From NCBI RefSeq assembly GCF_009914755.1, contig NC_060929.1: a stretch of 64,000 bases of DNA. One strand, written 5' to 3'. The position numbers and the translations under genes were made by a program. Under the pieces are notes generated by a model, which ran no database searches, had not been told where the DNA came from, and saw only the letters and a program-made list of their open reading frames with translations. How positions within the stretch are numbered: the stretch's first letter is position 1; every line of letters begins with the position of its first letter. This DNA is from the human T2T-CHM13v2.0 reference genome, Homo sapiens. Positions 42,301 to 52,206 of the stretch are shown here, piece after piece.

Positions 42301-45300
42301 GTGTCTCTGTCTCCTTCAGTTCTGCTCTGATCTTAGTTATTTCCTTCTGCTAGCTTTTGAATGTGTTTGCTCTTGCTTCAGTAGTTCTTTTAATTGGGAT
42401 CGTAGGATGTCAGTTTTAGATCTCTCCTGCTTTCTCTTGTGGGCATTTAGTGCTATAAATTTCCCTCTACACACTGCTTTAAATGTGTCCCAGAGATTCT
42501 GGTATGTTGTGTCTTTGTTCTCATTGGTTTCAAAGAACATCCTTCTTTGTGCCTTCATTTCGTTTTGTACCCAGTAGTCATTCAGGAGCTGGTTGTTCAG
42601 TTTCCATGTAGTTGAGCGGTTTTGAGTGAGTTTCTTAATCCTGAATTCTAGTTTGATTGCACTGTGGTCTGAGAGACAGTTTGTTATAATTTATGTGCTT
42701 TTACACTTGCAGAGGAGGGCTTTACTTCCAACTGTGTGGTCATTTTTGGAACAAGTGTGATGTGGTGCTGAGAAGAATGTATATTCTGTTGATTTGGGGT
42801 GGCAAGTTCTGTAGATGTCTGTTAGGTCCGCTTGGTTCAGAGCTGAGTACAATTCCTGGGTATCCTTGTTAACTTTCTGTTTCGTTGATCTGTCTAATGT
42901 TGACAGTGGGGTGTTAAAGTCTCCCATTATTATTGTGTGGGAGTCTAAGTCTCTTTGTAGGTCTCTAAGGACTTGCTTTATGAATCTGGGTGCTCCTGTA
43001 TAGGGTGCATATATATTTAGAATAGTTAGCTCTTCTTGTTGAATTGATCCCTTTACCATTATGTAATGGCTTTCTTTGTCTCTTTTGATCTTTGTTGGTT
43101 TAAAGTCTGTTTTATCAGAGACTAGGATTGCAACCCCTGCCTTTTTTTGTTTTCTATTTGCTTGGTAGATCTCCTCCATCCCTTTATTTTGTGCCTATGT
43201 GTGTCTCTGCACGTGAGATGGGTTTCCTGAATATAGCACACTCACGGGTCTTGACTCTTTATGCAATTTGCCAGTCTGTGTCTTTTAACTGGAGCATTTA
43301 GCCCATTTACATTTAAGGTTAATATTGTTATGTGTGACTTTGATCCTGTCATTATGATGTTGGCTGGTTATTTTGCTTGTTAGTTGATGCAGTTTCTTCC
43401 TAGCATTGATGGTCTTTACAATTTGGCATGTTTTTGTATTGGCTGGTACTTGTTGTTCCTTTCCATGTTTAGTGCTTCCTTCAGGAGCTCTTTTAGGGCA
43501 GGCCTGGTGGTGACAACAAAATCTCTCAGCATTTGCTTGTCTGTAAAGGATTTTATTTCTCCTTCACTTATGAAGCTTAGTTTGGCTGGATATGAAATTG
43601 TGGGTTGAAATTTCTTTTCTTTAAGAATGTTGAATATTGGCCCCTACTCTCTTCTGGCTTGTAGAGTTTCTGCCGAGAGATTAGCTGTTAGTCTGATGGG
43701 CTTCCCTTTGTAGGTAACCTGACCTTTCTCTCTGGCTGCCCTTAACATTTTTTCCTTCGTTTCAACTTTGGTGAATCTGATGATTATGTGTCTTGGGGTT
43801 GCTCTTCTCGAGGAGTATCTTTGTGGCGTTCTCTGTATTTCCTGAATCTGAATGTTGTCCTGCCTTGCTAGATTGGGGAAGTTCTCCTGGATAGTATTCT
43901 GCAGAGTGTTTTCCAACTTGATTCCATTCTCCCCGTCACTTTCAGGTACAGCAGTCAGACGTAGATTTGGTCTTTTCACATAGTCCCATATTTCTTGGAG
44001 GCTTTGTTCGTTTCTTTTTACTCTTGTTTTCTAAACTTCTCTTCTCACTTCATTTCATTCATTTGATCTTCAGTCACTGATACCCTTTCTTCCAGTTGAT
44101 CAAATCGGCTACTGAAGCTTGTGCATTCATCAAGTAGTTCTCGTGCCATGGTTTTGAGCTCCATCAGGTCATTTAAGGACTTCTCTTCATTGGTTATTCT
44201 AGTTAGCCATTCGTGTAATCTTTTTTCAAGGTTTTTAACTTCTTTGTGATGGGTTTGTGATCGTCTGAAGCCTTCTGTCAACTCGTCAAAGTCGTTCTCT
44301 GTCCAGCTTTGTTCCGTTGCGTTTTTTTCAAGGTAGATAAAACCACAAAGATGGGGAAGAAACAGAGCAGAAAAGCTGAAAATTCTAAAAATCAGAGCGC
44401 CTCTGGCGAGGAGCTGCATTCCTTTGGAGGGGGAGATGCGCTCTGATTTTTAGAATTTTCAGCTTTTCTGCTCTGTTTTTTCCCCATCTTTGTGGTTTTA
44501 TCTACCTTTGGTCTTTGATGATGGTGACGTACTGATGAGGTTTTGGTGTGGATGTCCTTTCTGTTTGTTAGTTTTCCTTCTAACAGTCAGGACCCTCAGC
44601 TGCAGGTCTGTTGGAGTTTGCTGCAGGTCCCCTCCAGACCCTGTTTGACTGGGTATCAGCAGCGGAGGCTGCAGAACAGTGAGTACTGCTGAACAGCAAA
44701 TGTTGCTGCCTGATCGTTCCTTTGAAAGCTTCGTCTCAGAGGGGTACCCGGCCCTGTGAGGTATCAGTCTGGCCCTACTGGGTGGTGTCTCCTAGTTAGG
44801 CTACTCGGGAATCAGTGACCCACTTGAGGAGGCTGTCTGTCCATTCTGAGATCTCAAACTCTGTGCTGGGAGAACCATTACTCTCTTCAAAGCTGTCAGA
44901 CAGGGACATTTAAGTCTGCAGAGGTTTCTGCTGCCTTTTGTTCAGCTATGCCCTGCCCCCAGAGGTGCAGTCTATAGAGGCAGGCAGGCCTCCGTGAGCT
45001 GAGGTGGGCTCCACCCGGTTCGTGCTTCCCAGCTGCTTTGTTTACCTACTCAAGCCTCAGCAATGGCGATGCCCCTCCCCCAGCCTTGCTGCGGCCTTGC
45101 AGTTCAATCTCAGACTGCTGTGCTAGCAATGAGCGAAGCTCCTTGGGTGTGGGACCGACCCTCTGAGCCAGGTGTGGGATATAATCTCCTGGTGTGCTAT
45201 TTGCTAAGACCTTTGGAAAAGCGTGTTAGTAAGGTGGGAGTGACCCGATTTTCCACATGCTGTCTGTCACGGCTTCCCTTGGCTAGGAAAGGGAATTCCC

Positions 45301-45516
45301 TGACCCCTTGCACTTCCTGGGTGAGGTGATGCCTCACCCTGCTTTGGCTCACGCTCGGTGGGCTGCACCCATTGTCCTGCCCCCACTGTCTGACAAGCCC
45401 CCGTGAGATGAACCCGGTACGTCAGTTGGAAATGCAGAAATCACCCGTCTTCTGTGTTGCTCACGCTGGGAGCTATAGACTGGAGTTGTTCCTATTTGGC
45501 CATCTTGGAACCCTCC
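39330..45516 (-). mobile_element. Full-length (~6.2 kb) primate LINE-1, L1PA4/L1PA5-type; ORF1 (~44487-43416) and ORF2 (~43352-39544) both disrupted
   Basis: 5' end GGAGGGTTCCAAGATGGCCAAATAGGAAC with YY1 core; ORF1, EN, RT ([12 protein letters not shown]) and C-terminal ORF fragments in the ORF track; 3' UTR and poly(A) at ~39330; retains the 5' UTR segment absent from L1HS. Confidence 0.96.
45063..45329 (+). other. L1 ORF0-like antisense ORF (88 aa) within the L1 antisense-promoter region
   Basis: ATG at the ORF0 position (gcaATGGCG); C-terminal PSEPGVGYNLLVCYLLRPLEKRVSKVGVTRFS resembles ORF0 PSEPGVGYSLVVRRFLSRSEKRNIRVGVTRFS (recalled). Confidence 0.75.
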
Positions 45517-45821
45517 TTTTTTTTTTTTTTTTTTTTTTGAGACAGAGTCTTGCTCTGTCGCCCAGGTTGGAGTGCAGTGGGCCATTCTCCGCTCACTGCA
45601 AGCTCAGCCTCCCGGGTTCACGCCATTCTCCTGCCTCAGCCTCGTCATTAGCTGGGATTACAAGCACCTGCCACCACGCCGGGCTAATTTTTTTGTATTG
45701 TTTAGTAGAGACGGGGTTTCACTGTGTTAGCCAGGATGGTCTCAATCTCCTGACCTTGTGATCCACCTGCCTCAGCCTCCCAAAGTGCTGAGATTACAGG
45801 TGTGAGCCACTGCACTTGGCC
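45517..45821 (-). mobile_element. AluY-like, tail abutting the L1 5' end
   Basis: gcaagctcagcctcccgggttcacgccattc; gtgttagccaggatggtctc. Confidence 0.92.
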
Positions 45822-46058
45822 TTTTTTGGACAGAGTCTTGCTGCATTGCCCAGGCTGGAATGCAGTGGTGCGATCTTGGCTTACTGCAACCTCCATCTCT
45901 CAGGGTCAAGCGATTCTCATGCCTCAGCCTCCCAAGAAGCTGGGTTACAGGAATGTGCCACCGTGCCCAGCTAATTTTGGCATTTTTATAGAGACGGGTT
46001 TTCGCCATGTTGGCCAGGCTGATACTGAACTCTAGGCCTCAAGCATTCTGTCCGCCTC
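45822..46058 (-). mobile_element. Alu (older, 5'-truncated)
   Basis: Antisense partial dimer directly after the previous Alu. Confidence 0.87.
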
Positions 46059-46289
46059 GAGTAAATAATTTTTATGAGTATAAAAACTAGTTGTCACAAT
46101 TGAAGCATTTAAAGTAGAGCCTGGAATATTACTTGAGGAAAACATTAAAGGCAATATTTGCATAAGGCGTTATTTGCACAAAAAGTGAAAAGTGAAAGCC
46201 TCGTTTCACCTCTCCTCCAGCTTTGTCCCTCTCCCTAGAAGACAGCCACTAACAACTATTGATGAATTTTTGTTTATTATGGAATATTC

Positions 46290-46579
46290 TTTTTTTTTTG
46301 AGATGGACTCTTGCTCTGTTGCCCAGGCTGCAGTGCAGTGGTGTGATCTCAGCTCATAGCAACCTCCGCCTCCTGGGTCAAGCGATTCTCCTGCCTCAGC
46401 CTCCTGAGTAGCTGGGATTACAGGCGCCCACCACCACGCCCAGCTAATTTTTTATATTTTTGGTAGAGACCAGGTTTCACCATGTTGGCCAAGCTGGTCT
46501 CAAACTCCTGACCTTGTGATCCGCCTGCCTCTGCCTCCCAAAGTGCTGGGATTACAGGCGGGAGCCACTGTGCCTGGCC
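46290..46579 (-). mobile_element. Alu (AluSg-like)
   Basis: Antisense dimer. Confidence 0.92.
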
Positions 46580-51319: not shown

Positions 51320-51555
51320 ATAAATTTGTTCAGACCCGTAGAATGTACAACACCAAGAATGAACCCTAAGGTAAACTGTAGACGTTGGGTGATAGTGATG
51401 TGTCAGTGTAGATTCATCAATTGTAATAAATGTACCACTTTTGGTAGTGGATGTTGATAATGTGGGAGGCTATGCATATGTAGGATGGGGAATATGGCTG
51501 TACCTTTGAATTTTGCTGTGAACTTAAAAATACTCTAAAAAATAGTATTTAAAAA
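51320..51555 (+). mobile_element. L1MC-like 3' end fragment
   Basis: agaatgtacaacaccaagaatgaaccctaaggtaaac...aataaatgtaccact. Confidence 0.8.
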
Positions 51556-51566
51556 ATCTTAAAATA

Positions 51567-51850
51567 GGCCAGGCACGGTGGCTCACGTCTGTAATCCCAG
51601 CACTTTGGGAGGCTGAGGCAGGTAGATCACGAGGTTGGGAGATCGAGACCATCTTGGCCAGCGTGGTGAAACCCTGTCTCTACTGAAAATACAAAAATTA
51701 GCTGGGCGTGGTGGCGTGTGCCTGTAATCACAGCTACTCGGGAGGCTGAGGCAGGAGAATGGCTTGAACCAGGGAGTTTGCAGTAAGCCAAGATCACACC
51801 AGTGCACTCCAGCCTGGCAACAGAGCGAAACTCTGTCTCAAAAAAACAAA
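51567..51850 (+). mobile_element. Alu (AluSc-like)
   Basis: Dimer ending ~140 nt before exon 10. Confidence 0.92.
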
Positions 51851-51993
51851 ATCTCAAAATAAAATTAAAAAGTGAAAGAGAAGGACTTTCAGGCAAACAA
51901 AATATAAATGTAATAGTAATAAAAATATGAAACATGGATGTTTCATATGCTAGAAGGTAAAAATTTTAATTTTATCTTTTTTTTCTCTTATAG

Positions 51994-52206
51994 ACATTCC
52001 ACTTCTTCCATCTATTACATCTCTGAGTCTAAATGAAAATGAAGAGAAGACCGGACCTTTTGTTGTACACTGGCTAAACAATAAAGAACTGCATTTTACT
52101 TTGTCCATGGAAGTTTTTTTACAGCAACTTAGAAAAAGTTTTGAACAACCATCTTCTGAGGCCAGTGTAGAAGATTCTAATCAGGCAGATGTAAAATCTG
52201 ATGAAG
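51994..52206 (+). CDS. DMXL1: DMXL1 exon 10, 213 nt, phase 1-1
   Basis: ctcttatag|ACATT...GAAG|gtaaac; (D)IPLLPSITSLSLNENEEKTGPFVVHWLNNKELHF...KSDE(E). Confidence 0.96.

What the first reader, a model, noticed from the sequence alone, without database searches (positions are those of the whole stretch)
45063..52206. L1 ORF0 kept open by compensating indels and in phase for fusion to DMXL1 exon 10
Seen: the antisense L1 points its antisense promoter and ORF0 in the DMXL1 direction. Relative to recalled ORF0 there is a 1-nt loss just after the ATG (45063) and a 4-nt duplication (gaccgacc, ~45153-45160); the net +3 restores the frame. The first ORF0 donor is intact: CCAG|GTGTGG, exon end 45171. 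45063-45171 is 109 nt = 36 codons + 1 (phase 1), and exon 10 (51994) accepts phase 1, giving ...SEP-D-IPLLPSITSL..., continuous with the rest of DMXL1. The second ORF0 donor is destroyed (ttccacatgc). A later donor TGG|GTGAGG (45320) is phase 0, matching exon 12. Known: L1 antisense promoters drive chimeric transcripts (e.g. L1-MET) and ORF0 forms fusions with downstream exons. Inference: an inducible primate-specific DMXL1 isoform with a novel 36-aa leader replacing exons 1-9 (much of the N-terminal WD40 region), which could alter V-ATPase assembly control.
Basis: partly seen in the sequence, partly recalled or inferred. Interest (0 to 1): 0.8.

Follow-up and report, generated by a model that had tools for sequence, protein, structure and literature searches.

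The report
In-phase L1 ORF0 upstream of DMXL1 exon
An old, decayed L1 retrotransposon lying backwards in a DMXL1 intron could on paper splice a short L1-encoded leader in frame onto DMXL1 exon 10, but the arrangement looks like a neutral coincidence and no transcript catalogue we could read shows it in use.

Summary
There is an ATG at 45063 and an 88-codon open frame. Compared with 29 of 29 close L1 relatives and 10 of 10 young L1 copies, this copy has lost 1 nt after 45067 and gained a 4-nt GACC duplication at 45153-45156. The donor CAG|GTGTGG ends its exon at 45171. The candidate exon is 109 nt (phase 1), and DMXL1 exon 10 (51994) accepts phase 1, giving ...PSEP-D-IPLLPSITSL, open through all later exons in the window.

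Nothing points to selection or use. ORF0's first donor is natively phase 1, so the match with exon 10 is a 1-in-3 event. The indel pair fits this copy's neutral indel load. Residues 3-31 are out of frame relative to ORF0.

The element is a decayed, full-length L1 of roughly L1PA4-6 age. It has competing out-of-phase donors and a strong Alu decoy exon directly downstream.

No L1-initiated DMXL1 transcript appears in RefSeq (27 transcripts), in a list of GENCODE v25 start sites inside L1PA elements, in an EST screen, or in a DNMT1-knockout fusion list.

Verdict: a real but ordinary permissive configuration. The fusion isoform remains an untested hypothesis of a known kind (L1 antisense-promoter / ORF0 fusions).

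The parts
39332..45516 (-). Full-length but decayed L1PA-type LINE-1, antisense to DMXL1, in intron 9. Its 5' end is at about 45516.
   Evidence: Collinear with a full-length relative (L041) over 39332-44320 and 44403-45512 at 89-91% identity. The longest sense ORF fragment is 280 aa. It differs by 5.8% (4.3% outside CpG) from the majority state of 29 relatives.
45063..45329 (+). ORF0-like open frame of 88 codons plus stop. It is what an unspliced antisense transcript would encode.
   Evidence: Four relatives (L004, L010, L015, L024) have an 87-aa frame ending ...WVR or ...RVR like the window's, so 88 = 87 + 1 from the net +3 nt.
45063..45171 (+). Candidate first coding exon: 109 nt, phase 1, 36 codons plus 1 base. 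A second in-frame ATG lies at 45129.
45067..45068 (+). Site of the 1-nt loss, directly beside AATGGC (45062-45067), the reverse complement of the GCCATT YY1-type core.
   Evidence: 29 of 29 relatives and 10 of 10 young copies have a base here. Motif. A YY1 site at L1 448-453 is reported in PMC4908685.
45153..45160 (+). GACCGACC, a 4-nt tandem duplication. The extra copy is aligned to 45153-45156.
   Evidence: 0 of 29 relatives and 0 of 10 young copies carry the extra four bases.
45169..45177 (+). First ORF0 splice donor, CAG|GTGTGG.
   Evidence: Score 4.61, 99.3rd percentile of GTs in the window. Identical in 6 of 10 young copies. GT in 9 of 29 and GC in 18 of 29 close relatives.
45250..45262 (+). 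Position of the second ORF0 donor, destroyed here (TTTCCACATGCTG).
   Evidence: 21 of 29 relatives keep CAGGT.
45318..45326 (+). Third donor, TGG|GTGAGG, phase 0. It is out of phase with exon 10 and in phase only with exon 12.
   Evidence: Score 3.5. GGTGAG kept in 28 of 29 relatives. Exon phases.
45231..45239 (+). Further competing donor, AAG|GTGGGA, phase 0.
   Evidence: Score 4.16, 98.9th percentile.
45517..45815 (+). Antisense Alu abutting the L1 5' end. It has decoy acceptors at 45542 and 45546 and a donor at 45799 (CAG|GTGTGA).
   Evidence: Acceptor scores 10.9 and 10.0 against 11.3 for exon 10; donor 4.1. Including it brings an in-frame stop.
51994..52206 (+). DMXL1 exon 10, accepting phase 1, with a strong acceptor.
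   Evidence: and the hub's gene table.
44616..44744 (-). 129-bp segment of the L1 5'UTR that is absent from young L1 copies.
   Evidence: BLAST against 10 young copies breaks exactly here, while the copies' own coordinates run on.
44330..44508 (.). Inverted duplication at the L1 5'UTR/ORF1 junction: 75-nt arms, 29-nt spacer, from an 83-bp insertion at 44320-44402.

Best explanation
This is a neutral, permissive arrangement rather than a working gene feature.

A full-length L1 of roughly L1PA4-6 age sits antisense in DMXL1 intron 9 and has decayed. Its ORF1 and ORF2 are broken, its 5'UTR holds about half the CpGs of five young copies, and it carries 7 small or medium indels in its 5' 2 kb. Two of those indels (-1 and +4) fall inside the first 109 nt of the ORF0 region and happen to sum to +3.

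The first ORF0 donor is natively phase 1 (106 nt in most copies). The copy therefore stays phase 1, which matches the next DMXL1 exon by a 1-in-3 coincidence.

If the antisense promoter of this copy fires at all, most products should not be the proposed fusion:
- many starts would lie downstream of the 45063 ATG;
- published L1 chimeric transcripts are mostly unspliced;
- two comparably scored donors are out of phase;
- an antisense Alu directly downstream offers an acceptor as strong as exon 10's, plus its own donor and an in-frame stop.

Shown: the sequence anatomy, phases, base rates among L1 copies, and absence from the annotation and catalogues read. Inferred: neutrality, and little or no use.
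For: 1. The indels are private to this copy: 29 of 29 and 10 of 10 comparison copies lack them. Residues 3-31 are read out of the ORF0 frame, so no ORF0 protein sequence is preserved there.
2. Indel load is 7 events in 2117 bp, giving P(>=2 in 109 nt) = 0.051.
3. The ATG-to-donor-1 distance is 106 nt (phase 1) in 27 of 29 relatives and 8 of 10 young copies. Phase 1 is therefore the default state, and 4 of the 12 DMXL1 exons in the window accept phase 1.
4. An ATG, an open frame to donor 1 and a GT donor together are common: 7 of 29 close relatives and 7 of 10 young copies.
5. Competing sites exist: donors at 45233 (4.16) and 45320 (3.5), both phase 0, and 11 acceptors scoring >=6 before exon 10, including Alu 45542/45546 (10.9/10.0) paired with donor 45799.
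6. No exon in 36117-51993 occurs in any of the 27 RefSeq transcripts (hub table).
7. There is no DMXL1 row among GENCODE v25 start sites inside L1PA elements and no DMXL1 in the 5 supplementary files of PMC6639357.
8. The single DMXL1 entry in the EST screen is an L1MA8 at hg19 chr5:118494797, which by my estimate is about 10 kb beyond the window end.
9. Published base rates are low. 57 of about 3200 ORF0 loci were seen fused to an exon (PMC4908685 quoting Denli 2015). 44 chimeric transcripts, 2.9%, were spliced at the 5' end (PMC9396940).
10. Only L1HS-L1PA3 responded to loss of DNA methylation.
11. In my tally of annotated starts in full-length antisense L1s, 12 of 40 lie upstream of the ORF0 ATG position.
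Against: - Donor 1 is the best donor in the region, and its nine bases are identical to the form in 6 of 10 young copies.
- Exon 10 has one of the strongest acceptors among the 12 annotated exons in the window (11.3, second only to 13.1).
- Both ATGs (45063 and 45129) are in frame with an A at -3.
- The antisense-promoter region 44900-45062 has no indel against the relatives, and the AATGGC core is kept.
- L1PA4-L1PA7 elements do give antisense chimeric transcripts in brain and glioma, mainly inside expressed genes.
- This L1 is not in the repeat-annotation-based list used by that study: there is no chr5 entry between 118.42 and 118.50 Mb (hg19) in its Table S1. Its silence there is therefore uninformative.
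- No RNA-seq, CAGE or long-read data could be queried here.
Confidence: 0.7

Rival explanations
1. In some contexts (early embryo or pluripotent cells, loss of KRAB-zinc-finger/KAP1 or HUSH silencing, tumours) the antisense promoter of this L1 fires. Donor 45171 is joined to exon 10, and an mRNA results for DMXL1 lacking exons 1-9 with a 36-residue L1-derived leader, or a 14-residue one from the ATG at 45129.
For: Frame, phase and junction are all compatible, with 0 stops over 461 codons. The donor and the exon-10 acceptor are strong. L1PA1-7 antisense promoters are active in many tissues, preferentially inside expressed genes. ORF0-exon fusions are documented.
Against: No annotated transcript or catalogue entry exists (hub table). 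Base rates are about 2% of loci. There are decoy sites and out-of-phase donors. Older L1s were not activated by demethylation. The cut may fall inside a beta-propeller region rather than at a domain border: exon-by-exon Pfam gave only sub-threshold WD40 or propeller hints, in exons 6 and 8 upstream and exon 11 downstream, which is inconclusive.
Confidence: 0.12
2. The antisense promoter is active but its products are not the fusion. They would be unspliced read-through transcripts encoding at most the 88-residue ORF0-like peptide, or transcripts spliced into the adjacent Alu or from the phase-0 donors. These are non-coding or degraded and may interfere mildly with DMXL1 transcription.
For: Most published L1 chimeric transcripts are unspliced and short; only 2.9% are spliced. 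The Alu offers acceptors at 45542/45546 and a donor at 45799, with in-frame stops. Donors 45233 and 45320 are phase 0. Seventeen AATAAA/ATTAAA signals lie between the L1 and exon 10.
Against: There is no expression evidence of any kind for this copy, and the same age and silencing arguments apply as above.
Confidence: 0.15

Closest known systems
L1 ORF0 and ORF0-exon fusion transcripts (Denli et al. 2015, Cell 163:583). The paper was not held and is known here only through PMC7746726, PMC4908685, PMC6639357 and PMC9396940 (passages).
   Same: The ORF lies on the antisense strand of a primate L1 5'UTR, with its ATG 454 nt from the L1 5' end. The first in-ORF donor has the same nine bases as young copies. 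The geometry would join it in frame to a downstream host exon.
   Different: Residues 3-31 are in another frame than ORF0. The second ORF0 donor is gone. The ORF is 88 rather than 71 codons. No transcript, ribosome or peptide evidence exists for this locus.
L1 antisense-promoter chimeric transcripts such as L1-MET (GENCODE start sites inside antisense L1PA elements, Supplementary Data 2 of PMC6639357; EST catalogue of PMC4908685)
   Same: A full-length L1PA lies antisense in an intron of an expressed gene, upstream of a coding exon. This is the layout of MET, RABGAP1L, CHRM3, SCAMP1 and others in the table.
   Different: DMXL1 is not in that table. The only DMXL1 EST chimera listed starts in a different, much older L1 (L1MA8) outside the window. 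Most listed cases are L1HS-L1PA3, and this copy is older.
L1 chimeric transcripts detected by CLIFinder in brain and glioma (PMC9396940; abstract, passages and Tables S1-S3 searched)
   Same: L1PA1-L1PA7 elements inside active genes produce antisense transcripts from starts near +450 or +200.
   Different: Most are unspliced. This L1 is not in their list of promoter-bearing elements, so it was not assessed.

Membership tests
L1 ORF0 locus | ATG on the antisense strand of a primate L1 5'UTR at about L1 position 452, in a good initiation context | tested here: met
   The ATG at 45063 is L1 position 454. It aligns with the ATG of 27 of 29 relatives and 10 of 10 young copies. Context is A at -3 and G at +4.
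L1 ORF0 locus | Encodes the ORF0 protein (71 aa in young copies) | tested here: not met
   Residues 3-31 are frame-shifted relative to the ORF0 of 6 of 10 young copies with the 71-aa form. Only the part from PSEPG onward is in the ORF0 frame.
L1 ORF0 locus | Two splice donors inside the ORF | tested here: inconclusive
   Donor 1 is present and donor 2 is destroyed. That there are two donors is taken from PMC9396940; which sites they are is my alignment-based reading.
L1 antisense-promoter chimeric transcript / ORF0-gene fusion | L1 with a 5'UTR, antisense to the host gene, upstream of a host exon | tested here: met
   and the hub gene table.
L1 antisense-promoter chimeric transcript / ORF0-gene fusion | Transcription start inside the L1 antisense promoter | not testable with these tools
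   No CAGE or RNA data are held. No annotated start is present (hub table).
L1 antisense-promoter chimeric transcript / ORF0-gene fusion | Observed splice junction from an L1 donor to a host exon | not testable with these tools
   Catalogues read: EST screen (a different L1 only), DNMT1-knockout supplements (none), CLIFinder tables (none, but this L1 was not in their input list).
L1 antisense-promoter chimeric transcript / ORF0-gene fusion | Reading frame continuous from the L1 ATG into the host coding sequence | tested here: met
   109 nt, phase 1, into a phase-1 exon, with 0 stops in 461 codons.
Older L1PA 5'UTR type (L1PA3-6, carrying the 129-bp segment that I recall as the ZNF93 target of Jacobs et al. 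2014; paper not seen) | 129-bp 5'UTR segment that the youngest L1s lack | tested here: met
   44616-44744 is present in the window and absent from 10 of 10 young copies. The link to ZNF93 is recalled, not tested.

The most novel reading that the evidence does not exclude
This L1 is a silenced alternative promoter gated by KRAB zinc-finger/KAP1 or HUSH. When derepressed (pre-implantation embryo, naive pluripotency, some tumours) it yields DMXL1 lacking exons 1-9, headed by a 36-residue frame-shifted ORF0 leader. The truncated protein acts dominantly on rabconnectin-3 / V-ATPase assembly and would be an ape- or catarrhine-specific regulatory isoform.
Probability: 0.03. Interest if true: 0.55.

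Novelty: new member of a known kind. Interest (0 to 1): 0.2.

Why it matters
If the junction were used, it would add one more host gene to the list of L1 ORF0 / antisense-promoter fusions. That gene is a regulator of V-ATPase assembly, and the product would be an N-terminally truncated, lineage-specific isoform.

As it stands, the value is mostly methodological:
- The first ORF0 donor is always phase 1, so a third of suitably oriented intronic L1s will look 'in phase'.
- In older L1PA lineages the GT of that donor comes and goes with CpG decay.
- This particular L1 escapes at least one repeat-annotation-based screen, so absence from that catalogue is not evidence.

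Tried and rejected
- Selection on the frame: rejected. The indels are private, the intervening residues are out of the ORF0 frame, and the indel density matches the rest of the copy.
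- Donor 'conserved intact': qualified. 18 of 29 close relatives have GC there.
- Literature for an L1-DMXL1 transcript. Full-text searches for DMXL1 with 'L1 antisense promoter', 'L1PA', 'LINE-1' plus 'chimeric', and 'antisense promoter' gave 0 papers each. DMXL1 plus 'retrotransposon' plus 'transcript' gave 9 papers, none about this by title or abstract start (listing only).
- Denli 2015 was not held, so its list of 57 fusions and its supplements were not seen and may bear on the claim.
Those of PMC12791003 were not tried.
- Subfamily naming: no repeat library is available, so only an age class from divergence and the 129-bp segment is given. The L1PA ages and divergences used to name the class are recalled.
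- Domain border at exon 10: exon-by-exon Pfam gave only sub-threshold hints. A spliced protein was not submitted, because joined sequence may not be typed.
- Splice scores come from an approximate frequency matrix recalled from memory and calibrated only on the window's 12 annotated exons and on all GT/AG sites. They rank sites and are not MaxEnt scores.

Full report
**1. What is there**

Window 39332-45516 holds a full-length LINE-1 on the minus strand, antisense to DMXL1, inside the intron between the exons at 35948-36116 and 51994-52206.
- It is collinear with a full-length relative from the same genome at 89-91% identity.
- Its own reading frames are broken; the longest minus-strand ORF is 280 aa.
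- Over about 2 kb it differs by 5.8% (4.3% outside CpG) from the majority state of its 29 nearest relatives.
- It carries a 129-bp 5'UTR segment (44616-44744) that 10 of 10 young L1 copies lack.
- Its 5'UTR has 19 CpGs where five young copies have 28-39 over the same stretch.

From recalled subfamily ages and divergences this fits L1PA4-6, an element some 18-27 million years old. No repeat library was available to name the subfamily.

**2. The observation**

All sequence statements hold.
- The ATG is at 45063-45065, and the frame is open for 88 codons to a stop at 45327-45329.
- A search of the window's own genome returned L1 5'UTRs at 89-90% identity (7693 first-look candidates, 40 scored).
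- In a MAFFT alignment of the 29 fetched copies, 29 of 29 have a base that the window lacks after 45067, and 0 of 29 have the extra GACC at 45153-45156.
- Ten young L1 copies were found with a published primer for the ORF0 end (856 genomic matches, 10 fetched). Six of the ten encode a 71-aa ORF0 and one a 70-aa form. All ten show the same two differences from the window.
- The window protein therefore shares only its first two residues, and the part from PSEPG onward, with the ORF0 frame. Residues 3-31 come from a shifted frame.
- The frame ends at the stop that closes an 87-aa frame in four relatives, so 88 = 87 + 1.
- Donor 1 (CAG|GTGTGG, exon end 45171) is present. The second ORF0 donor is lost, where 21 of 29 relatives keep CAGGT. 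The third donor at 45320 is kept, as in 28 of 29 relatives.

**3. Phase and fusion**

Concatenated annotated exons are open only in the frame starting at 12958 (0 stops against 43 and 75).
- The eight exons before 51994 sum to 1015 nt, so exon 10 takes one carried base.
- 45063-45171 is 109 nt, which also leaves one base.
- The join reads ...PSEP-D-IPLLPSITSL and stays open over 461 codons to the end of the last exon in the window.
- The Asp codon is the same as at the normal junction, because both upstream exons end in G.
- A second in-frame ATG lies at 45129. An upstream ATG at 44948 opens a 9-codon frame. An in-frame stop lies at 45000.

**4. Is it more than chance?**

- In 27 of 29 relatives and 8 of 10 young copies the ATG-to-donor-1 distance is 106 nt. 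Phase 1 is therefore the default of every ORF0 first donor, and the match with the next host exon is a 1-in-3 event. Four of the 12 DMXL1 exons in the window accept phase 1.
- The copy has 7 internal indel events in 2117 bp. Two or more falling in a given 109 nt has probability 0.051, and two frame-shifting indels cancel about half the time. With thousands of L1 5'UTRs in the genome, many such cases are expected.
- The combination of ATG, open frame and GT donor occurs in 7 of 29 close relatives and 7 of 10 young copies.
- At donor 1, 18 of 29 close relatives have GC and 9 have GT. The site overlaps CpGs, so in this lineage the GT appears to be a product of CpG decay rather than a preserved feature (inference).

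Nothing here requires selection.

**5. Would the proposed mRNA be made?**

Splice sites were ranked with a rough frequency matrix (recalled numbers, calibrated on the window). On this ranking:
- Donor 1 scores 4.61, at the 99.3rd percentile of 3680 GTs. Annotated DMXL1 donors range from -0.4 to 7.0.
- Exon 10's acceptor scores 11.3.
- Donors at 45233 (4.16) and 45320 (3.5) are phase 0.
- Eleven acceptors scoring 6 or more lie before exon 10.
- The closest of these belong to an antisense Alu abutting the L1 5' end: 45542 and 45546, scoring 10.9 and 10.0, with a donor at 45799 scoring 4.1. Including that Alu exon brings an in-frame stop.
- Seventeen AATAAA/ATTAAA hexamers lie between the L1 and exon 10.

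From the literature:
- The EST study places the primary antisense start at about L1 position 400, with a YY1 site at 448-453 (PMC4908685, section read).
- I tallied GENCODE v25 starts in full-length antisense L1s from part 1 of 2 of Supplementary Data 2 of PMC6639357. I dropped fragments under 5.9 kb, same-strand rows, older subfamilies and duplicates. Of 40 starts lying 300-520 nt from the L1 5' end, 12 are upstream of the ORF0 ATG position, 14 lie between the positions of this copy's two ATGs, and 14 are further downstream.
- In brain and glioma about 17% of L1PA1-7 elements give chimeric transcripts, but only 44 (2.9%) were spliced at the 5' end (PMC9396940, passages).
- 57 of about 3200 ORF0 loci were seen fused to an exon (PMC4908685 quoting Denli 2015).
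- After DNMT1 knockout only L1HS, L1PA2 and L1PA3 were expressed (PMC6639357, passages).

**6. Direct evidence for or against an L1-DMXL1 transcript**

- The hub's RefSeq table lists no exon between 36116 and 51994 in any of 27 transcripts.
- DMXL1 is absent from the 5 supplementary files of PMC6639357 (file 1 was cut when stored). It is also absent from the chr5 rows of its table of GENCODE v25 starts inside L1PA elements.
- In the 10 supplementary files of PMC4908685, DMXL1 occurs once: EST AL703580, starting in an L1MA8 at hg19 chr5:118494797. By my coordinate estimate this is about 10 kb past the window end, so it is another element.
- DMXL1 is absent from Tables S1-S3 of PMC9396940. Table S1 also has no chr5 entry between 118.42 and 118.50 Mb (hg19), so this L1 was never in their input. 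That absence says nothing.
- Full-text searches pairing DMXL1 with L1 terms found no paper. A looser search found 9 unrelated papers (listing only).
- Denli 2015 and its supplements, and the supplements of PMC10619931, could not be read.

**7. Protein consequence if it were made**

Exons 1-9 would be replaced, amounting to 338 codons within the window plus exon 1. Exon-by-exon Pfam gave only sub-threshold hints:
- WD40 in exons 6 and 8 (E 0.054 and 0.11);
- propeller-like matches in exon 11 (E 0.0053, far below the curated cut-off).

These hints lie on both sides of the cut. That would fit a cut through a propeller region, but the result is inconclusive. Any effect on V-ATPase assembly is speculation.

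**8. Verdict**

I put about 0.7 on a neutral, essentially unused configuration. I put about 0.15 on antisense transcripts that do not give the fusion, and about 0.12 on a real low-level 45171-to-51994 mRNA in some derepressed context. A functional isoform is about 0.03.

Noticed in passing
window 44320-44508: An 83-bp insertion creates an inverted duplication of the L1 5'UTR/ORF1 start. The arms are 44330-44404 and 44434-44508 (75 nt, 97% complementary) with a 29-nt spacer. It is private to this copy among 26 relatives.
   Followed up: partly
window 44616-44744: A 129-bp 5'UTR segment is present here and absent from 10 of 10 young L1 copies. From memory it corresponds to the ZNF93-bound segment lost in the youngest L1 lineages. 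If so, this copy would be a KRAB zinc-finger/KAP1 target in pluripotent cells.
   Followed up: partly
window 45517-45815: An antisense Alu abuts the L1 5' end. It has a poly-T/AG acceptor (45542 or 45546) and a GT donor made by CpG decay (45799). The potential Alu exon is 258 or 254 nt and could also be picked up by normal DMXL1 pre-mRNA.
   Followed up: partly
window 45169-45177 and loci L002-L030: In this older L1 lineage the first ORF0 donor position reads GC in 18 of 29 copies and GT in 9 of 29. Splice competence of ORF0 in older L1PA copies seems to be gained copy by copy through CpG deamination.
   Followed up: partly
outside the window, about 10 kb past its end (hg19 chr5:118494797-118503331): The EST catalogue of PMC4908685 lists a spliced EST (AL703580) that starts in an antisense L1MA8 and joins a DMXL1 exon. 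DMXL1 may therefore have an L1-derived internal start elsewhere.
   Followed up: no
window 44756-45229: This stretch of the L1 5'UTR, including the ORF0 start, is not among the masked stretches in the hub table. The element is also missing from the RepeatMasker-filtered list of promoter-bearing L1PA elements in PMC9396940. Annotation-driven screens may skip this copy.
   Followed up: partly
window 45408-45761: A 117-codon + strand ORF runs from the L1 5' end into the Alu. It is probably a chance frame.
   Followed up: no
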